Source of the DNA: a virus
Reading direction: 5' to 3' (one strand)
IMG/VR virus record: IMGVR_UViG_3300023296_001674
DNA: 25,260 bases
Shown here one piece after another: positions 3,110-25,210 of this stretch. Position 1 is the first letter of the stretch. Every line of letters starts with the position of its first letter. The notes below the pieces were generated by a model. The model saw only the letters and a list, made by a program, of their open reading frames with translations. It did no database searches and was not told the DNA's origin. A program made the translations under genes and the position numbers.

Positions 3110-3394
3110 GAGCAAACGAGATCGAATACAGTGTTAACGCGGAACGAGACTGCTAGGAACACTTAAAATATACCTAATATGGGCGCGTTGTGGATGGATT
3201 TCCTTTTGTGGAATGATAAAAGCAATGGTAGGAAGCAAAGCGACCTACTAGGGAAAGCGTTATATGCTTTCCTGATAAGTTATTTTGTATGGAAGTGCCA
3301 TTAAAGCAGAACAATTGGTTTGGCGACCAAGCACCTTCGGGGCATAAAATCTGCTACTACTATACTATTTTAATCATAACTAAGTGTCACAAAA

Positions 3395-3464
3395 TATTGT
3401 ATGGTGTAGTGGTAACACGCTGCCTTTATCGGCGGAGCCGTGGGTTCGAGTCCTACTATGATAT
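3395..3464 (+). tRNA. tRNA-like element (AU-rich acceptor, D and T arms fold; anticodon loop irregular; no CCA), possible pseudogene
   Basis: Acceptor TATTGTA/TATGATA; D stem GTGT/ACAC; T arm GTGGG-TTCGAGT-CCTAC. Anticodon stem CTGCC/GGCGG leaves only a 6-nt loop. Confidence 0.3.
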
Positions 3465-3565
3465 TTGGATTACGTTCAGTGTGCACACCGAACGCCACAA
3501 ATTATCTGTTATTATCGCGATAGTGATAGATAATGTTGGGTCACTTAGTTATGATTAAAGTTTTT

Positions 3566-3790
3566 AGGGTGTTCGTCTAGTGGATTAGGACGCGCCGCCT
3601 TGGGTAGTTGGAGTTCGATTCTCCTTAGCAACGGTTACGTAAATCCGCACGGTGAGACATTGGTTCGAATCCAATACATGTTAAAATAACGATTTCACAT
3701 GAGATGTATAGTTTTAATGGATAAATCAGGCATGAGCCTTGTGCGGCAAGATAGTGGGTTCGATTCCCCTTGCGTTGAATGTGAAATGAT
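3566..3790 (+). other. cluster of tRNA-derived remnants: three T-arm-like hairpins without complete cloverleaves
   Basis: T-arm-like hairpins: GGAG-TTCGATT-CTCC, ATTGG-TTCGAAT-CCAAT, GGG-TTCGATT-CCC. No matching acceptor stems or anticodon arms found by hand. Confidence 0.3.
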
Positions 3791-6937: not shown

Positions 6938-6967
6938 GCCGCTACTACTATTTATAACTTATACTAA

Positions 6968-7061
6968 GTCGGATTTCCCTAACTGGTGTGGGTAGAATCC
7001 ATAATATGCACTGGGTGATCCTTATGTGCTGCACGTGGTTCGATTCCACGATCCGGCTCCA
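6968..7061 (+). tRNA. tRNA-like, 94 nt (class-II-like length), CCA encoded; anticodon arm not resolved
   Basis: Acceptor GTCGGAT/ATCCGGC; 3-bp D stem CCC/GGG; T arm CGTGG-TTCGATT-CCACG; T73, CCA. Confidence 0.3.
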
Positions 7062-7693: not shown

Positions 7694-7770
7694 GGTAGGT
7701 GTAGTGTTAACGGTTAGCACGTCAGACTGTGACTCTGAAAGTGCCGGTTCAAATCCGGTCATTTACCCCA
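7694..7770 (+). tRNA. tRNA-His (anticodon GUG) with encoded G-1 and C73; CCA encoded
   Basis: G-1, acceptor GTAGGTG/CATTTAC; D GTGT/GCAC; anticodon stem TCAGA/TCTGA, loop CTGTGAC; T arm GCCGG-TTCAAAT-CCGGT; C73-CCA. Confidence 0.8.
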
Positions 7771-12851: not shown

Positions 12852-12938
12852 AGAAGTACTTTGTATTGGTGAACTCAGCAGTCTCCAAAACTGTGTCGCA
12901 TTTGTGACTGGTAGGTTCGAATCCTACTACTTCTGCCA
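12852..12938 (+). tRNA. class-II tRNA (16-nt variable arm with 5-bp stem, G73) carrying anticodon CCA (UGG codon); CCA encoded
   Basis: Acceptor AGAAGTA/TACTTCT perfect; anticodon stem GCAGT/ACTGT, loop CTCCAAA; variable arm GTCGC-ATTT-GTGAC; T arm GTAGG-TTCGAAT-CCTAC perfect. Confidence 0.55.
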
Positions 12939-13439: not shown

Positions 13440-13479
13440 AACCTGTAGGTCGTAGGTTCGAATCCTGCTCCTCGCGCCA
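13440..13479 (+). pseudogene. tRNA 3' fragment (T arm GTAGG-TTCGAAT-CCTGC + TCCTCGC-G-CCA) with no 5' partner
   Basis: No complementary 5' acceptor strand within 100 nt upstream. Confidence 0.3.
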
Positions 13480-13484
13480 ATTAT

Positions 13485-13531
13485 GCGGGGATAGCTCAGT
13501 GGTAGAGCAACTGGCAATTTTACTGGTTCCA
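13485..13531 (+). pseudogene. truncated tRNA: intact 5' half (GCGGGGA-TA-GCTC-AGTGGTA-GAGC-A…) joined after the anticodon loop directly to …TTCCA
   Basis: 47 nt; D arm perfect; T arm and 3' acceptor missing. Confidence 0.35.
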
Positions 13532-13764: not shown

Positions 13765-13843
13765 TTGACTAGTAGCTCAGTGGTTTAGAGCGGGGAGTTC
13801 TAAACTCTCGACAGCGTTGGTTCAAATCCAACCTGGTCAACCA
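13765..13843 (+). tRNA. putative amber-suppressor tRNA (anticodon CUA, reads UAG); CCA encoded
   Basis: Acceptor TGACTAG/CTGGTCA; D GCTC-AGTGGTTTA-GAGC; anticodon stem GGGAG/CTCTC, loop TTCTAAA (U33, C34-U35-A36, A37); 7-nt variable region; T arm GTTGG-TTCAAAT-CCAAC; A73-CCA. Confidence 0.6.
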
Positions 13844-13850
13844 ATACTAA

Positions 13851-14022
13851 GCGGGTATCGTATAATGGTATTATCGCAGCCTTCCATGTGATATGTTTAA
13901 CATATCTCAGGTTGAGCCATTTATTGGCTCCTTGAAGGTCGAGGGTTCAGACCCCATCCGGTTTAAGCCCGGTAGACCAACTTAAGCTGATGACGGGAGT
14001 TCGATTCTCCCTACCCGCTCCA
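13851..14022 (+). tRNA. tRNA-Gly (anticodon UCC) interrupted between positions 37 and 38 by a ~98-nt structured insert; same acceptor as the other Gly genes; CCA encoded
   Basis: 5' exon GCGGGTA-TC-GTAT…GCAGC-CTTCCA (13851-13886). 3' exon A-GCTGA-TGAC-GGGAG-TTCGATT-CTCCC-TACCCGC-T-CCA (13985-14022). First 18 nt identical to the tRNA at 12508. Confidence 0.55.
13887..13984 (+). other. intron-like insertion inside tRNA-Gly(UCC): four consecutive hairpins
   Basis: Hairpins: GATATG-TTTAA-CATATC; GAGCCA-TTTA-TTGGCTC; GGTC…GACC with a T-loop-like GGG-TTCAGAC-CCC; CCGG-TTTAAGC-CCGG. Too short for a canonical group I intron. Confidence 0.4.
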
Positions 14023-17225: not shown

Positions 17226-17241
17226 TTGTGGAGGCAATTAT

Positions 17242-17325
17242 GCGCGTAGCCGGTATGTTGGTACTACCACTGGTCTTCCAAACCAGCGCGAAAGCATTGG
17301 GGTTTGATTCCCCCTACCCGCTCCA
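17242..17325 (+). tRNA. tRNA-Gly (anticodon UCC) with an 11-nt variable arm (84 nt); Gly-family acceptor; CCA encoded
   Basis: Acceptor GCGCGTA/TACCCGC-T-CCA; D GGTA/TACC; anticodon stem CTGGT/ACCAG perfect, loop CTTCCAA; variable CGCGAAAGCAT; T arm (T)GGGG-TTTGATT-CCCC(C). Confidence 0.6.
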
Positions 17326-20328: not shown

Positions 20329-20436
20329 TTCCAAGTAGCTCAGATGGTAGAGCGTCTGACTGTGGAACAGATGAGCCTAAAGCTTTGAAGTTCAAATTTA
20401 ATCAGAATGTCGGCGGTTCGATCCCGTCCTTGGAAG
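20329..20436 (+). tRNA. aberrant tRNA-like gene, 108 nt, no CCA: canonical 5' half and T arm separated by a ~39-nt insertion after the anticodon arm
   Basis: Acceptor TTCCAAG/CTTGGAA perfect; D GCTC-AGATGGTA-GAGC; anticodon-like stem TCTGA/(A)CAGA with loop CTGTGGA (GUG); insert contains TTGAA-G-TTCAA; T arm GGCGG-TTCGATC-CCGTC. Confidence 0.35.
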
Positions 20437-20575: not shown

Positions 20576-20667
20576 GCCTCGGTAGCTCAGAAAAGCAACG
20601 TAAGTTGTAGTGTAGTAGCAGGTGACTGAACCTCACCGTGTCGGTAGTTCGAATCTATCCTGGGGCA
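20576..20667 (+). tRNA. aberrant tRNA-like gene, 92 nt, no CCA: ~20 extra nt in the D region
   Basis: Acceptor GCCTCGG/CTGGGGC; 5' D stem GCTC with no partner; anticodon-like stem GGTGA/TCACC with loop CTGAACC (GAA); T arm GGTAG-TTCGAAT-CTATC. Confidence 0.35.
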
Positions 20668-22192: not shown

Positions 22193-23101
22193 ATGCTTTT
22201 TATTGGGTCTACTGCATTTAAACAACATCATAATTTACCGGGAATTTTACCGAAAGATATTGATGTTATGGGAACATACGAAGATGTTTCAAAGTATGTA
22301 AAAAGTCTTCATGGTGATCTGGTTGCTGCAAGACCATTTGCGGAAGGTAAGAAATATCTTTTCGTTAAGGCTGGTGATCATAAATCACCCGAAACAATTA
22401 TTGAAGCAGAGATTGCGTGGGAAGGATCGTTAGCAGAAGAATTTATCAAATTGATGGATGATACTGCTGGACATACACGATATGCTACATTGAATGGTTT
22501 ATATACCCTTAAGATGTCGCATCGATATTTGAGAAACTCGCCACATTTTTTAAAGACAATGCGTGATATTCATTTTATGAGAACACTGAAGGCTAGAATT
22601 CCAGATGAGTTGAAGGATTTTTACAAACGGCGAATGGCAGCAACGTATGATTATTCTCATCCTAATTTGAGTGTTACGAAAAAGACATTTTTTGATGGTG
22701 ATGGTATTGATTATAAATATGACCATGATTCAATCCATGAGACAGTTAAGATTGGTGAACATCCGGCTTATTGGTATTTTAAGCCAGATACAAGTGAAGT
22801 TGCGGTAAGCAAGGATTTGTTTGAAGCACTTGATTATGAATCACGAATCAATTCGGTTTTGGAAGAGGCGTATGTTCTTGCTATTGAACGTTCACAGGTT
22901 CCACATCCGGGTGTATTAACACGTAGAAAGAGTTTTGTTCTTGCATTAAATAAAGTATGCTCAAGCATTACTTCTGGATGGTGGAGAGAGTTCGCATGGG
23001 AGAATTATGATTCTGTGTATGAACGATATGACGATTCATATATGTATCGTTTTAACGCTGGAATAGATAGTGGATTGGTAAAACCATTCAATGAGGGATA
23101 G
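22193..23101 (+). CDS. hypothetical protein (302 aa), TAG stop
   Basis: SD AAAGGA upstream. Confidence 0.6.
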   Translation: MLFIGSTAFKQHHNLPGILPKDIDVMGTYEDVSKYVKSLHGDLVAARPFAEGKKYLFVKAGDHKSPETIIEAEIAWEGSLAEEFIKLMDDTAGHTRYATLNGLYTLKMSHRYLRNSPHFLKTMRDIHFMRTLKARIPDELKDFYKRRMAATYDYSHPNLSVTKKTFFDGDGIDYKYDHDSIHETVKIGEHPAYWYFKPDTSEVAVSKDLFEALDYESRINSVLEEAYVLAIERSQVPHPGVLTRRKSFVLALNKVCSSITSGWWREFAWENYDSVYERYDDSYMYRFNAGIDSGLVKPFNEG

Positions 23102-23352: not shown

Positions 23353-23561
23353 TGAGAGATATAAATCGCATACCAGAAATTCTAGAGGCAATATATAATG
23401 CTTGGACTATTAATACTGAGTGTAGATTGGGACAAGTGCTTAATAATTCAATTCTTGGCAATCAGAGATTGGTTGATATTGAAGATGAGGAATTGCTTAA
23501 GGGGTTGAATGATTATTATGATAAATTAAATTTTAAGACGCATACAAAGGGTGACGTTTAG
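23352..23561 (+). CDS. hypothetical protein (69 aa), TAG stop
   Basis: ATGA-coupled start; SD AAGGGA. Confidence 0.5.
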   Translation: MRDINRIPEILEAIYNAWTINTECRLGQVLNNSILGNQRLVDIEDEELLKGLNDYYDKLNFKTHTKGDV

Positions 23562-23565
23562 GACG

Positions 23566-23712
23566 TTAGTCTGGGGGCAGTATAACTAGCACATCAGATA
23601 CCTGTATGTAAGGGTCATTTCAAGGAATGGCTGTTGACGCAGTATTCCGAAGAGAACGACGGTTGGTTGTAGGGCTGATACTGCCTGATGGGTTCGATTC
23701 CCGCTGTGTCAC
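23566..23712 (+). ncRNA. structured RNA with a tRNA-like T arm: long-range helix GGCAGTAT(23575-23582)/ATACTGCC(23677-23684) abutting TGGG-TTCGATT-CCCG
   Basis: Lies between CDS 23352-23561 and the HisRS-like gene; has no acceptor or CCA end, so it is not a standard tRNA. Confidence 0.3.
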
Positions 23713-23740
23713 TAATTAATGTAACAAAAGGAGAAAGACA

Positions 23741-24368
23741 ATGCTTAGAGGAACACGTTTGATGACTGGTGCGGAAGCATCTACATACACGAACACTGTT
23801 GACACACTACGGAGGTGTCTTCATCGATAATAATGTCGAAGAAGTTATAGTTCCGTCGTTATGGGAACAGCAGACATTTATTGATAAAGCAGGAAGTGAA
23901 ATTGTAAATCAGATGTGGGCATTTGAAGATAAGAAAAATCGCCCCGTATGTTTGATACCAGAAGTTACTGGTGTTATACAAGAAATGTGGCGCGATGATT
24001 GGAGTAAATCCAAACCAAAGCCATATTCTATTTTTTATGTGAATCGTTGTTATCGTTATGAACGACCACAGAAGGGTAGATATAGAGAATTCACACAAAT
24101 CGGATTAGAAATTCTTGGTGATACATCAGGGAATGATTACGATATGGCAATTAATTTATTGCAAAAGTGTCTCGATTGTTTTACTATAGATTATAAACTT
24201 ACAGAAACGGTACAACGCGGTTTGGCGTATTATGTTGATGATGGGTTTGAAGTCGAATGTGAGAAGTTGGGCGCACAGAAGCAAATTGCTGGTGGTGGTC
24301 GATACAATGAAGGTATTGGTTGGGCTATCGGCGTTGATAGATTAATATTGGGGATTGATGATGACTAG
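23741..24368 (+). CDS. miniaturised histidyl-tRNA-synthetase-like protein (class II motifs 2 and 3) requiring a +1 frameshift near 23804-23812, or a frameshifted pseudogene
   Basis: Frame A (ATG 23741, SD AAAGGAGAAAG) encodes MLRGTRLMTGAEASTYTNTVDTL (compare HisRS …[23 protein letters not shown]) and stops at 23828. Frame B (+1, open from 23769) encodes …YGGVF…MWAFEDKKNRPVCLIPEVTG…CYRYERPQKGRYREFTQIG…IAGGGRYNEGIGWAIGVDRL. No anticodon-binding domain. Confidence 0.55.
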
Positions 24369-24962: not shown

Positions 24963-24966
24963 CAAT

Positions 24967-25043
24967 GGGCGATTAATCTGGCGAAAATAGGGGTAAAAGG
25001 TGAAGCTCCCCCTTCAGGCGGGTTCAATTCCACGCATCGTCCA
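24967..25043 (+). tRNA. tRNA-like element, no CCA; anticodon loop only 6 nt (CTCCCC); T stem with bulged A
   Basis: Acceptor GGGCGAT/ATCGTCC; stem TGAAG/CTTCA; T region GCGGG-TTCAATT-CC-A-CGC. Confidence 0.3.
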
Positions 25044-25055
25044 CAAATACCCTAT

Positions 25056-25128
25056 GGCTGGGGTGCTAGGAACACAGTTGTCCTTCATATGGATAATGCG
25101 CAGGGGGCGGAACCCTGACCAGCTACCA
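25056..25128 (+). tRNA. tRNA with anticodon CAU (Met/fMet or lysidine-Ile type), non-canonical T loop GGCGGAA; CCA encoded
   Basis: Acceptor GGCTGGG/ACCAGCT (6 bp); anticodon stem TGTCC/GGATA, loop TTCATAT; T stem CAGGG/CCCTG perfect. Confidence 0.55.
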
Positions 25129-25135
25129 ATACCAT

Positions 25136-25210
25136 GCTCTTGTAACATAATGGCTAATGTGAGCGTCTCATAAACGTTTGAAGAAGGTTCGATTCCTTCC
25201 TGGAGTACCA
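25136..25210 (+). tRNA. tRNA with anticodon CAU (Met/fMet or lysidine-Ile type), canonical arms; CCA encoded
   Basis: Acceptor GCTCTTG/CTGGAGT; D ACAT-AATGGCTA-ATGT; anticodon stem AGCGT/ACGTT, loop CTCATAA; T arm GAAGG-TTCGATT-CCTTC. Confidence 0.7.

What the first reader, a model, noticed from the sequence alone, without database searches (positions are those of the whole stretch)
23566..24368. Miniature HisRS-like gene needing a +1 frameshift, preceded by a tRNA-like structured leader
Frame A from ATG 23741 (strong SD) encodes 23 residues matching the HisRS N-terminus (…RG…TG(A/E)(E/T)A…(I/V)(D/E)(T/G)TL(R/K)) and then hits TAA at 23828. The +1 frame, open from 23769, encodes a compact class-II core with textbook HisRS motif 2 (YRYERPQKGRYREF) and motif 3 (GGGRY) but no insertion or anticodon-binding domains. 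The shift must occur around ACA-CUA-CGG-AGG (23804-23815), a run of rare Arg codons (CGG AGG) reminiscent of +1 programmed-frameshift sites. Options are programmed +1 frameshifting, a recent pseudogenising 1-nt deletion, or a sequencing error. Immediately upstream (23566-23712) is a long-range-paired RNA ending in a T-arm mimic (TGGG-TTCGATT-CCCG). This recalls tRNA-mimic operators that autoregulate aaRS genes, or a HisZ/HisRS-paralog regulatory pairing with the phage tRNA-His at 7694.
Basis: partly seen in the sequence, partly recalled or inferred. Interest (0 to 1): 0.8.

Follow-up and report, generated by a model that had tools for sequence, protein, structure and literature searches.

The report
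Histidine-sensing frameshift in mini HisRS gene
A very small histidyl-tRNA-synthetase gene in this giant phage, and in dozens of relatives including Pseudomonas and Burkholderia genomes, can only be read through a conserved +1 ribosomal frameshift placed at a histidine codon, which looks like an undescribed switch that makes the enzyme only when charged histidine tRNA is scarce.

Summary
The split reading frame is real and is not an error or a pseudogene. Frame 0 (ATG 23741 to TAA 23828-30) encodes the HisRS N-terminus. The +1 frame (to TAG 24366-68) encodes the rest of a 208-aa HisRS catalytic core.

The same +1 split lies at the same nucleotide in 34 distinct loci: jumbo-phage contigs, the cultured Sinorhizobium phage Phosso, and chromosomes of Pseudomonas, Burkholderia, Paraburkholderia, Variovorax, Collimonas and Chromobacterium. 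All 34 carry [C/G]TT-CA[T/C], a Leu or Val codon followed by a His codon. Most have a Shine-Dalgarno-like GGAGG or GGGGG three bases upstream, as in prfB. Variation keeps codon periodicity in frame 0 before the site and in frame +1 after it.

The predicted fusion products contain almost no histidine: 2 His in 7,066 residues, against 3.2% in neighbouring ORFs. The bacterial copies also sit behind a His-codon leader peptide plus a terminator.

Best reading: a prfB/Ty1-like programmed +1 frameshift in which the hungry A-site codon is His, so the gene is autoregulated by His-tRNAHis. This step is inferred.

The tRNA-like "leader" has a real T-arm motif, but nothing supports it as an operator. I found no prior description in the searchable literature.

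The parts
23730..23733 (+). Shine-Dalgarno (GGAG) for initiation of the 0-frame ORF
   Evidence: Read directly from the sequence: 7 nt before ATG 23741. Relatives have similar GGAG/GAGG boxes before their ATG.
23741..23830 (+). Frame-0 ORF, MLRGTRLMTGAEASTYTNTVDTLRRCL-H-R-stop. Codons 1-27 are the true N-terminus of the mini-HisRS. Standard decoding gives a 29-aa dead-end peptide.
   Evidence: ORF listed. The N-terminus matches in-frame homologues (MLRGTR...) and HisRS residues 6-30. Frame-0 synonymous fraction is 0.38, against 0.12 and 0.07 in the other frames.
23811..23817 (+). Internal Shine-Dalgarno-like stimulator GGAGGTG. The GGAGG core ends 3 nt before the shift codon.
   Evidence: Duplex with the 16S 3' end is -13.3 kcal/mol. 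20 of 25 phage-type shifted loci are at or below -6 (mean -8.9), against a coding background mean of -3.0 with 16% at or below -6. In-frame relatives lack it. The spacing is the same as in prfB, AGGGGG-UAU-CUU (known from the literature).
23819..23825 (+). Shift heptamer CTT-CAT-C: P-site Leu codon CUU, A-site His codon CAU, then the first base of the following 0-frame codon. After the +1 slip the next codon read is AUC (23823-25).
   Evidence: [C/G]TT-CA[T/C] is invariant in 34 of 34 distinct shifted loci (CTT 23, GTT 11; CAT 27, CAC 7). TTCA has zero entropy. The site is bounded by upstream +1-frame stops and by the downstream 0-frame stop.
23823..24368 (+). +1-frame part of the gene, IDNNVEEVIVPSLWEQ...LILGIDDD plus TAG. 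It carries the HisRS catalytic core: motif 2 YRYERPQKGRYREF, HisA RGLAYY, HisB GGGRY and motif 3 GWAIGVDRL.
   Evidence: AlphaFold model of the fusion has pLDDT 92.1, and a single helix (residues 10-29) spans the junction. Foldseek top hit is E. coli HisRS 1kmn, TMq 0.87. There are no in-frame His codons.
23634..23712 (+). tRNA-like element upstream of the gene: 8-9 bp acceptor-like stem, two hairpins, and the T-arm GGG-TTCGATT-CCC. An alternative 161-nt version starts at 23552. Most likely a degenerate or non-canonical tRNA gene of the array. No regulatory role is shown.
   Evidence: Rfam tRNA-Sec model scores 18.5 bits, E 0.3, in a local search only. It folds to a cloverleaf-like shape with z -1.28. 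Only the T-arm is similar to anything else. It is not conserved in relatives.

Best explanation
The gene encodes a minimal histidyl-tRNA synthetase of about 208 aa: the catalytic core only, with no insertion domain and no anticodon-binding domain.

Its synthesis requires a programmed +1 ribosomal frameshift at CUU-CAU (23819-24). The steps are:
- Ribosomes start at ATG 23741 and read 27 codons in frame 0.
- With peptidyl-tRNALeu on CUU in the P site, the A site shows the His codon CAU.
- If His-tRNAHis is plentiful, His is inserted and translation stops two codons later at TAA, giving a useless 29-aa peptide.
- If His-tRNAHis is scarce, the A site stays empty. The GGAGG three bases upstream pairs with the 16S rRNA anti-SD, as in prfB. 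The P-site tRNA then re-pairs from CUU to UUC, and AUC is read next.
- Translation continues in the +1 frame to the full enzyme, ...TLRRCL|IDNNVEEV....

The full-length product contains no histidine, so it can be completed during His-tRNAHis shortage. If the enzyme charges tRNAHis, this closes a negative feedback loop analogous to RF2 autoregulation.

Shown here: the conserved split, the invariant site, the SD-like element, selection in both frames, the absence of His, and HisRS homology and fold.

Inferred: that the shift is ribosomal, that it responds to His-tRNAHis, and that the product aminoacylates tRNAHis.
For: (1) The same +1 offset (109 nt against 108 nt between the MLRGTR and P..W landmarks) occurs in 25 distinct phage or metagenome loci. 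These include the cultured phage Phosso. It also occurs in 9 bacterial loci. All 34 have [C/G]TT-CAY at the same position.

(2) The phase of nucleotide variation flips at the site. Entropy by codon phase is 1.03/0.68/1.57 before it and 1.50/0.81/0.57 after it. The synonymous fraction is 0.38 in frame 0 before the site and 0.47 in frame +1 after it, against 0.06-0.12 in the wrong frames.

(3) The site is bounded. In five loci a TGA lies in the +1 frame four codons upstream. In L004 and L020 a TAG lies immediately upstream. In L018 the 0-frame stop is 10 codons after the His codon, so a stop codon is not the universal trigger.

(4) In-frame homologues have L (39/60) or V (7/60) at position 27 and I or T, among others, at position 28. 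This matches a fusion made by a slip on NUU followed by AUY or ACU.

(5) The SD-like element is enriched and lies 3 nt upstream, as in prfB. No conserved downstream RNA structure was found.

(6) Histidine is avoided only in the translated frame:
- 2 in-frame CAY in 5,164 codons, against 76 and 162 CAY triplets in the other two phases;
- 52 of 52 shifted-type phage proteins have no His in the core, and 102 of 109 bacterial-clade proteins have none;
- 32 of the 34 predicted fusion products are His-free;
- other ORFs of the window average 3.2% His, and none of them lacks His.

(7) Bacterial homologues carry an independent His-tRNAHis sensor. Each has an upstream leader ORF with 2-4 consecutive His codons, followed by an invariant terminator AAGGCGCC-N3-5-GGCGCC-T6. 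That sensor turns transcription on when His-tRNAHis is low, which only makes sense with a frameshift that also fires when the His codon is hungry.

(8) The fusion is a good HisRS core. It aligns without a gap to HisRS across the junction at 1.4e-27. The model has pLDDT 92 with one helix across the junction. Foldseek TMq to E. coli HisRS is 0.87. It matches hisS far better than hisZ.

(9) tRNA-His(GUG) lies within 1.2 kb in 14 of 19 relatives that have flanking tRNAs, and it makes up 18 of 99 neighbouring tRNAs.
Against: - There is no experimental evidence: no trans-frame peptide, no ribosome profiling and no reporter data.
- +1 shifts at hungry sense codons are usually inefficient in E. coli. 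This is general knowledge; reviews it.
- The SD-like element is weak or absent in a few loci (L018 +0.3, L024 -3.5, bacterial clade about -6 kcal/mol).
- GUU re-pairs less well on UUC than CUU does.
- The phage carries its own tRNA-His, so it is unknown when His-tRNAHis would be limiting during infection.
- The TAG bounds in L004 and L020 are weakened if those phages suppress TAG. This window itself encodes a tRNA with a CUA anticodon.
- Nine bacterial-clade proteins have ATG at position 28, so internal initiation is possible in those.
- In a rough NJ tree the shifted and in-frame phage versions are intermixed, with about 17 state changes. The history of gain and loss is therefore unresolved.
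Confidence: 0.7

Rival explanations
1. The +1 frameshift is programmed but constitutive. It only sets a low fixed yield of enzyme, and the His identity of the A-site codon is a by-product of coding constraints in the +1 frame (Phe-Ile/Thr = TTC-AYN).
For: The 0-frame codons after the site (UGA or CGA) are largely dictated by Ile-Glu/Asp in the +1 frame. Part of the conservation could therefore be a protein-coding constraint. No regulation has been measured.
Against: - Under the NUU-to-UUC slip, TTC is not translated, yet it is never TTT (34/34).
- Position 28 is never K or R in shifted genes, although it is K or R in 19 of 60 in-frame homologues. K or R there would turn CAY into CAA or CAG.
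- The absence of His in the products, and the His-leader attenuators in bacteria, point to histidine sensing.
Confidence: 0.13
2. The shift happens one codon later or by another route. Either tRNAHis sits on CAY in the P site with a slow UGA or CGA codon in the A site, or a special tRNA reads a four-base codon (CAYN or NUUC).
For: 22 of 34 loci have UGA and 8 have CGA or CGG directly after CAY. These phages encode unusual tRNAs, including one with a GUG anticodon and a long extra arm at 20329-20436 and one called with a 2-nt anticodon. The product length would be the same.
Against: - L018 (CGC, stop 10 codons away), L020 (CCA) and L015 (AGC) lack a slow codon after CAY.
- tRNAHis(GUG) cannot re-pair on AUU or ACU.
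- This model does not explain why the preceding codon is always [C/G]UU.
- No tRNA with an 8-nt anticodon loop was found in the window.
- A His-requiring shift contradicts the bacterial attenuator, which makes the mRNA only when His-tRNAHis is low.
Confidence: 0.06
3. These are two separate products. A 29-aa N-terminal peptide is made, and a core is initiated internally using the GGAGG as a real ribosome-binding site (for example at AUC or AUU, or at the annotated GTG 23769). Optionally the two assemble non-covalently.
For: GGAGG lies 7 nt before AUC, which is ideal SD spacing. Gene callers annotate internal starts. 9 of 109 bacterial-clade proteins have ATG at that codon.
Against: - Most loci have no start codon there. 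ACU occupies the position in at least 7 loci.
- The sequence upstream of F-I in the +1 frame is unconserved junk containing His residues, and it evolves under frame-0 constraint.
- The spacing between the N-terminal and core landmarks is conserved to the nucleotide.
- The junction lies inside one confident helix.
Confidence: 0.05
4. The split is a pseudogene or an assembly or sequencing error.
For: A single-nucleotide frame break in a metagenomic contig is the usual signature of an error. NCBI and JGI pipelines annotate only the truncated ORF.
Against: The same break is present in 34 distinct sequences from many samples, from a cultured phage and from finished bacterial chromosomes. It does not lie in a homopolymer. 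Both halves are under purifying selection.
Confidence: 0.01
5. The upstream tRNA-like element (23552/23634-23712) regulates the gene, either as a tRNA-mimic operator or, more modestly, as an RNase P/Z processing signal that frees the mRNA 5' end from the tRNA-array transcript.
For: A near-perfect T-arm sits 49 nt before the ATG, and a cloverleaf-like fold is possible. L007 and L013 also have unrecognised T-loop-bearing elements 40-45 nt upstream. L004, L012, L014 and L016 have real tRNAs there. No promoter or terminator was found nearby, which fits a polycistronic transcript.
Against: The fold is not stabler than shuffled sequence. There is no Rfam family. Beyond the T-arm there is no sequence or structure conservation. 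Many relatives have nothing tRNA-like upstream. tRNA-like remnants are common throughout this array, for example at 24965-25130.
Confidence: 0.1

Closest known systems
prfB (release factor 2) autoregulatory +1 frameshift, AGGGGG-UAU-CUU-UGA-C
   Same: The P-site codon is CUU. An internal SD-like sequence ends 3 nt upstream; L015 reads CGGGGG-TAT-CTT, almost the prfB cassette. Standard decoding gives a short dead-end ORF. The full-length product requires the shift. The proposed logic is that shortage of what decodes the A-site codon raises synthesis of the factor that relieves the shortage.
   Different: The A-site codon is a sense codon (His, CAY), not UGA. The re-pairing codon is UUC, not UUU. 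GUU replaces CUU in a third of the loci. The gene is an aaRS-like enzyme. The feedback is inferred, not shown.
Yeast Ty1 / ABP140 / EST3 hungry-codon +1 frameshift (CUU-AGG-C)
   Same: A heptamer with CUU in the P site and a slowly decoded sense codon in the A site. The peptidyl-tRNALeu slips +1.
   Different: Ty1 depends on a constitutively rare tRNAArg(CCU) and has no SD element. Here the limiting species would be a conditionally scarce aminoacyl-tRNA cognate to the encoded enzyme, in bacteria and phages.
his operon leader-peptide transcription attenuation
   Same: His-tRNAHis is sensed by ribosome pausing at His codons. The bacterial homologues of this gene carry exactly such a leader (2-4 consecutive His codons plus a terminator) in addition to the frameshift.
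   Different: The phage gene in this window has no such leader. Here the sensing codon is inside the gene and acts on the reading frame rather than on transcription termination. Rfam finds no match in the bacterial leaders at the gathering threshold.
Canonical bacterial HisRS (hisS) and its isolated catalytic domain
   Same: Motif 2 with the RPQxGRYREF loop, the HisA box RGLxYY, the HisB box GGGRY and motif 3 are kept. The fold matches with TMq 0.87. From my own knowledge, an N-terminal catalytic fragment of E. coli HisRS retains some activity, and tRNAHis identity rests mainly on G-1:C73, which is read by the catalytic domain.
   Different: It is about half the size. The insertion domain, the loop between HisB and motif 3, and the anticodon-binding domain are missing. 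It scores below the NCBIfam hisS cut-off (142 against 287 bits). Activity is untested.
HisZ (HisRS paralogue, regulatory subunit of short-form HisG)
   Same: It is a HisRS-like protein without an anticodon-binding domain. NCBI names most bacterial members 'ATP phosphoribosyltransferase regulatory subunit'.
   Different: It matches hisS much better than hisZ (2e-41 against 2e-16). It keeps the catalytic boxes that HisZ has generally lost. It is about 200 aa against about 320-390 aa. No HisG gene lies next to it in any locus examined. In phages it sits among tRNA genes.

Membership tests
prfB-type autoregulatory +1 programmed frameshift | Shift-prone P-site codon (CUU) followed by a base that allows +1 re-pairing | tested here: met
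   CTT (23) or GTT (11) followed by C in 34 of 34 loci. The window has CTT-C at 23819-22.
prfB-type autoregulatory +1 programmed frameshift | Internal Shine-Dalgarno-like sequence about 3 nt 5' of the shift codon | tested here: met
   Window GGAGG(TG), -13.3 kcal/mol, 3-nt spacer. 20 of 25 phage-type loci are at or below -6, against 16% of background windows. It is weaker (about -6 to -7) in the bacterial clade and absent in L018.
prfB-type autoregulatory +1 programmed frameshift | The A-site codon is the UGA stop read by the gene's own product | tested here: not met
   The A-site codon is His, CAT or CAC, in 34 of 34. UGA often follows one codon later, but not always.
prfB-type autoregulatory +1 programmed frameshift | Frameshift efficiency responds to the level of the gene product or its substrate | not testable with these tools
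   Only indirect support is available: His-free products and His-leader attenuators in the bacterial homologues.
Hungry-codon +1 frameshift (Ty1 type) | A slowly decoded sense codon in the A site next to a slippery P-site codon, with no downstream structure required | tested here: inconclusive
   The heptamer architecture is met, and no conserved downstream structure was found. That CAY is decoded slowly under the relevant conditions is inferred.
Histidyl-tRNA synthetase (class IIa) | Class II motifs 2 and 3 plus the HisRS-specific HisA (RGLDYY) and HisB (GGRYD) boxes | tested here: met
   YRYERPQKGRYREF, RGLAYY, GGGRY and GWAIGVDRL are present and invariant or nearly so across the family.
Histidyl-tRNA synthetase (class IIa) | Insertion domain and C-terminal anticodon-binding domain | tested here: not met
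   The alignment to 1adj skips HisRS residues about 153-218 and ends before the C-terminal domain. The 208-aa model covers only the core.
Histidyl-tRNA synthetase (class IIa) | Reaches the curated family score (NCBIfam TIGR00442) | tested here: not met
   142.2 bits against a cut-off of 286.75, as expected for a half-length protein.
Histidyl-tRNA synthetase (class IIa) | Histidine activation and aminoacylation of tRNAHis | not testable with these tools
   Context only: tRNA-His lies within 1.2 kb in 14 of 19 tRNA-bearing relatives.
HisZ | Closer to HisZ than to HisS profiles; encoded with or acting on short-form HisG | tested here: not met
   hisS 2.1e-41 against hisZ 2.2e-16. No HisG family appears among the neighbours in the P. 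syringae, B. gladioli, Variovorax, Chromobacterium or Collimonas loci, and none is seen in the flanks of this gene in the window.
tRNA-mimic operator / T-box type leader of aaRS genes | A conserved structured leader upstream of homologous genes, recognisable by a covariance model | tested here: not met
   No Rfam match is significant. The fold z-scores are -1.1 to -1.3. The upstream regions of relatives are unrelated to one another.
his-type leader-peptide attenuator | A short leader ORF with consecutive His codons followed by an intrinsic terminator before the gene | tested here: not met
   It is absent from the window, which has no His-run ORF and no terminator. It is present in 9 of 9 bacterial homologues.

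The most novel reading that the evidence does not exclude
This is a previously unrecognised class of recoding switch. An aminoacyl-tRNA-synthetase-like gene would be autoregulated by a +1 ribosomal frameshift whose A-site 'hungry' codon is the enzyme's own cognate codon. The switch is conserved from jumbo phages to Pseudomonas syringae and Burkholderia. In bacteria it is layered on a His-leader attenuator. It produces a histidine-free, roughly 200-aa minimal HisRS that can charge tRNAHis without an anticodon-binding domain.
Probability: 0.45. Interest if true: 0.92.

Novelty: new variant of a known kind. Interest (0 to 1): 0.86.

Why it matters
If the model is right, it adds a new logic to translational recoding. 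A sense-codon frameshift would report directly on the charging level of one tRNA and control the enzyme that charges it. This is a sense-codon counterpart of RF2 autoregulation.

It would be a natural, compact sensor of His-tRNAHis. That is useful as a reporter, and it gives a case of regulated hungry-codon frameshifting in bacteria that can be tested directly.

It also has three practical consequences:
- It corrects the annotation of more than a thousand database entries, which are now truncated ORFs named 'ATP phosphoribosyltransferase regulatory subunit'.
- It defines what may be the smallest HisRS-type enzyme.
- It bears on why giant phages carry aaRS-like genes next to their tRNA arrays.

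The presence of the gene in tractable organisms makes experiments straightforward. Candidates are P. syringae, B. gladioli, Paraburkholderia, and phage Phosso on S. meliloti.

Tried and rejected
- Megablast of the region against the phage collection found nothing.
- A first scan of IMG/VR with the single protein found only one locus. An alignment was needed.
- The look-up of encoding contigs for P0001, the window's own ORF, returned nothing.
- I looked for a conserved RNA structure downstream of the shift site. None was found.
- I tested whether the shifted genes are monophyletic. The NJ tree is poorly resolved and intermixed, so no conclusion is drawn.
- Rfam on the leader and on the bacterial leaders gave nothing above threshold.
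I do not trust this call.
- My first motif scan used the wrong spacer and found nothing. The corrected pattern hits the site, plus one minus-strand match at 25000-25012 that is probably chance.
- The PHROGs library has no family for this protein.
- Ten literature searches and reads returned no report of a frameshift in HisRS or any aaRS gene, and none of a CUU-CAU site. These included the Atkins 2016 recoding review and the GeneTack survey. The GeneTack 'tRNA synthetase' cluster is a generic cluster that its authors attribute to phase variation.
- Transcriptional slippage was rejected because no conserved homopolymer is present.
- A -2 shift was rejected because +1 reproduces exactly the 36-codon spacing of the in-frame homologues.
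Full report
**What is in the window.** The window is part of a tRNA array of a jumbo phage. ARAGORN finds 27 tRNA genes, and Rfam adds several atypical ones.

At 23741 an ATG preceded by GGAG opens a 29-codon ORF, MLRGTRLMTGAEASTYTNTVDTLRRCLHR, which ends at TAA 23828-30. The +1 frame is open from 23769 to TAG 24366-68.

The +1 ORF matches Pfam tRNA-synt_His at 3e-14 and the class II core domain at 3e-12.

Two details need correction. GGGRY is the HisRS 'HisB' box rather than class II motif 3, which is GWAIGVDRL.

**Is the frame break real?** A protein search with the conceptually fused product found more than 1,400 relatives of 185-222 aa. They fall into two kinds:
- full-length single-frame proteins that start MLRGTR or MIRGTR and cover 98-100% of the query;
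- closer relatives that cover only about 86%. Their annotated N-termini are unrelated 'junk' followed by ..GGxF(I/T).. or ..SEVVFI...

The cultured Sinorhizobium phage Phosso (469 kb) has a 67%-identical copy that matches only from residue 27. Its DNA reads ATG CTA CGC GGA ACT CGT ... CTC CGA GGT TGT CTT CAT CGA AGC TGA, and the core continues in the +1 frame.

I fetched DNA for relatives from IMG/VR, metagenomes and GTDB genomes. I then located the N-terminal landmark (M-x-R/K-G-T-R) and the core landmark (P-x-x-W) in all frames.

In-frame genes have the two landmarks 108 nt apart. Shifted genes have exactly 109 nt. I found 25 distinct shifted sequences of phage or metagenome type and 9 from bacterial genomes.

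A sequencing error or a recent pseudogene cannot explain the same single-base offset at the same position in 34 independently assembled sequences. These sequences share as little as about 50% amino-acid identity.

**Selection.** I aligned 24 shifted genes. Before the site, the most variable codon phase is the third position of frame 0 (entropy 1.03/0.68/1.57). After the site, it is the third position of frame +1 (1.50/0.81/0.57).

The fraction of differing codon pairs that are synonymous is 0.38 in frame 0 for the N-terminal part, against 0.12 and 0.07 in the other frames. For the core it is 0.47 in frame +1, against 0.06 and 0.08. Both parts are therefore translated, each in its own frame.

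**The site.** All 34 sequences have [C/G]TT-CA[T/C] at nucleotides 79-84 from the ATG: CTT in 23, GTT in 11, CAT in 27 and CAC in 7. The four bases TTCA never vary. In the window this is CTT 23819-21 and CAT 23822-24.

The interval in which the frame change must occur is narrow:
- Five loci have a TGA in the +1 frame four codons upstream.
- L004 and L020 have a TAG immediately before TTC. There is a caveat: some of these phages may suppress TAG.
- The 0-frame stop follows the His codon after 0-4 codons in most loci, but after 10 codons in L018. A stop codon therefore cannot be the universal pause signal.

In-frame homologues have Leu (39/60) or Val (7/60) at position 27, and Ile, Thr, Lys or Arg at position 28. 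A slip of the P-site tRNA from NUU to UUC, followed by reading of AUY or ACU, gives ...L/V27-I/T28.... This has the same length and character as the in-frame proteins. For the window the result is ...TLRRCL|IDNNVEEV..., which resembles P0007 ...KLRSCLIENGYQEI....

Lys and Arg never occur at position 28 in shifted genes. They would turn CAY into CAA or CAG.

**Stimulator.** Three bases upstream of the shift codon, most shifted genes have GGAGG, GGGGG or GAGG.
- The predicted duplex with the 16S rRNA 3' end averages -8.9 kcal/mol, and is -13.3 in the window.
- Other positions in the same genes average -3.0.
- 20 of 25 shifted loci are at or below -6, against 16% of background windows.
- In-frame relatives lack the element.

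L015 reads CGGGGG-TAT-CTT-CAT, which is almost the E. coli prfB cassette AGGGGG-UAU-CUU-UGA. The features of prfB are reviewed in PMC5009743. No conserved downstream RNA structure was found.

In relatives it is Arg-Gly or Arg-Ser.

**Why the histidine codon matters.** The A-site codon is the codon cognate to the enzyme being made. Three independent observations argue that this is not a coincidence.

(i) The predicted fusion products are essentially free of histidine.
- There are 2 in-frame CAY in 5,164 codons of the 25 phage-type genes. The same genes contain 76 and 162 CAY triplets in the other two phases.
- 52 of 52 shifted-type phage proteins have no His in the core, and 102 of 109 bacterial-clade proteins have none.
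- In-frame homologues have 0.34% His.
- The other ORFs of this window average 3.2% His, and none of them lacks His.

(ii) The family has a large bacterial clade: Paraburkholderia, Burkholderia gladioli, Variovorax, Collimonas, Chromobacterium, Pseudomonas syringae and others. Most entries are named 'ATP phosphoribosyltransferase regulatory subunit'.
- All 120 best hits lack the N-terminus.
- In all nine loci examined, the DNA has the same frame-0 N-terminus ending ...RFRS(Y/W/F)-L-H-stop, with CTT-CAY.

(iii) Each of those nine bacterial genes is preceded by a short leader ORF with a run of His codons. Examples are MNQFPQSNRHHHHSPL.., MELRNVPTRLHHHHGRL.. and ..FNFHHHHGRM... The leader is followed by an invariant intrinsic terminator, AAGGCGCC-N3-5-GGCGCC-TTTTTT, 20-33 nt before the start codon.

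This is the architecture of the his-operon attenuator, which lets transcription through when ribosomes stall for lack of His-tRNAHis. A gene whose mRNA is made only under His-tRNAHis shortage, and whose product contains no His, fits a frameshift triggered by an empty A site at CAY. It does not fit a mechanism that needs His to be inserted.

**What the product is.**
- The fused 208-aa protein aligns without a gap across the junction to T. thermophilus HisRS (E 1.4e-27), and it skips the insertion domain.
- It matches NCBIfam hisS at 2e-41, against hisZ at 2e-16.
- AlphaFold gives pLDDT 92.1 and pTM 0.88, with a single helix (residues 10-29) running through the junction.
- The best structural matches are E. 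coli HisRS catalytic domains (TMq 0.87, E 1e-17).
- Motif 2 with its RPQxGRYREF loop, HisA, HisB and motif 3 are invariant or nearly so in the family.

From my own knowledge, the motif-2 loop is what reads the G-1:C73 identity element of tRNAHis, and an isolated catalytic fragment of E. coli HisRS keeps some activity.

In phage relatives the gene sits in tRNA arrays. tRNA-His(GUG) lies within 1.2 kb in 14 of 19 loci that have flanking tRNAs, and it accounts for 18 of the 99 neighbouring tRNAs.

I therefore consider a minimal, anticodon-independent HisRS the most likely function, at about even odds. A HisZ-like or other histidine-adenylate-using role cannot be excluded, especially for the bacterial copies.

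**The upstream 'leader'.** The T-arm-like TGGGTTCGATTCCCG and an 8-9 bp acceptor-like pairing are real, and an 80-nt version folds into a cloverleaf-like shape. Even so, the evidence for a regulatory leader is weak:
- Stability is not above shuffled controls (z -1.1 to -1.3). Real tRNAs in the window score similarly on this test, so it is weak either way.
- Rfam gives only a sub-threshold tRNA-Sec hit (18.5 bits, E 0.3 in a local search) and nothing window-wide.
- Nothing but the T-arm resembles any other sequence I fetched.

Upstream regions of the relatives differ from one another. There is a genuine tRNA-His in L004, and tRNA-Gln in L012, L014 and L016. L007 and L013 have unrecognised tRNA-like elements. 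L002 has terminators. Several loci have coding sequence, and the bacterial copies have the His-leader attenuator.

The simplest reading is a degenerate or non-canonical tRNA gene of the array. It may serve as a processing site. I see no evidence for a tRNA-mimic operator.

**Comparison with what is known, and novelty.** Mechanistically the site combines features of two known systems:
- prfB: CUU in the P site, an SD-like stimulator at a 3-nt spacing, a short dead-end ORF, and autoregulatory logic.
- Ty1, ABP140 and EST3: a hungry sense codon in the A site.

It fails the defining prfB feature of a stop codon in the A site. I therefore file it as a new variant of programmed +1 frameshifting, not as a member of the prfB family.

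Full-text searches and two key surveys returned no frameshift in HisRS or any aaRS gene, and no CUU-CAU site. The surveys were the Atkins et al. 2016 recoding review and the GeneTack survey. PHROGs has no family for the protein.

The literature library is incomplete, so prior description cannot be ruled out.

**Confidence.**

| Claim | Confidence |
|---|---|
| A conserved, functional +1 recoding event exists at NUU-CAY | about 0.9 |
| It is a sensor of His-tRNAHis | about 0.7 |
| The product charges tRNAHis | about 0.5 |

All mechanistic steps beyond the sequence patterns are inferred and need the experiments listed under next steps.

Noticed in passing
L161-L164, L241-L248 (bacterial homologues), about 30-200 nt upstream of the gene: Every bacterial copy examined has a leader ORF with 2-4 consecutive His codons, followed by an invariant terminator AAGGCGCC-N3-5-GGCGCC-T6. 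A conserved GCGCCG(G/T)GG box after the His run could form the antiterminator. It looks like an unannotated his-type attenuator; Rfam has no hit at the gathering threshold.
   Followed up: partly
window 20329-20436: A tRNA gene with the anticodon loop CUGUGGA (GUG, His) but an extra region of about 40 nt, no G-1 and a G discriminator. It is found by Rfam (54 bits), and by ARAGORN only with introns allowed. It is a second, non-canonical His-anticodon tRNA beside the canonical tRNA-His at 7695-7770. Which enzyme charges it is unknown.
   Followed up: partly
window 13851-14019, 3566-3683, 20576-20667: Rfam tRNA matches of 169, 118 and 92 nt, which means tRNA genes carrying large insertions (one of about 95 nt with its own T-loop-like motif, one in the D-loop). 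Default ARAGORN misses them. They may be introns or composite tRNA-like genes.
   Followed up: no
window 13766-13843 and 3394-3465: A tRNA with a CUA anticodon (amber-suppressor type, called tRNA-Pyl by ARAGORN), and a tRNA called with a two-base anticodon. These hint at stop-codon reassignment or unusual decoding in this phage.
   Followed up: no
window 13445-13511: A sub-threshold match to the YrlA (bacterial Y-RNA-like) family: 32 bits against a gathering score of 69, E 0.0016. It lies inside the tRNA array.
   Followed up: no
window 17241-17322, 12852-12934, 6967-7058: Sub-threshold tRNA-Sec-model matches (38, 37 and 27 bits). They are probably long-arm or atypical tRNAs that are not called as tRNA genes.
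   Followed up: no
window 24965-25130: Two further tRNA-like remnants with T-loop-like motifs (GGCGGGTTCAATTCCACGC and GGGGGCGGAACCCTGACC), between the last ORF and tRNA-Met 25136-25210. No tool calls them as tRNAs.
   Followed up: no
L007 about 1100-1210 and L013 about 1095-1190: Two relatives also have T-loop-bearing, tRNA-like elements about 40-45 nt upstream of the mini-HisRS start. Neither ARAGORN nor Rfam (E<=0.01) recognises them. Their sequences are unrelated to the window's element.
   Followed up: partly
P0074 (protein); 9 of 109 bacterial-clade proteins: P0074 starts MLRGTR but enters the +1 frame around codon 10 through a different indel, and still keeps ..GGSFI... Nine bacterial-clade proteins have Met (ATG) at position 28, right after the shift site, so internal initiation might coexist with frameshifting there.
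   Followed up: no
window 24355-24368: The next ORF (139 aa, with a weak MORN-repeat match) starts at TTG 24355 or ATG 24358, inside the last codons of the mini-HisRS gene. This suggests translational coupling within one operon.
   Followed up: no
window 22193-23101: The 302-aa ORF two genes upstream matches PHROG 2141 (unknown function) at 7e-97. It is the only neighbour with a known phage family.
   Followed up: no
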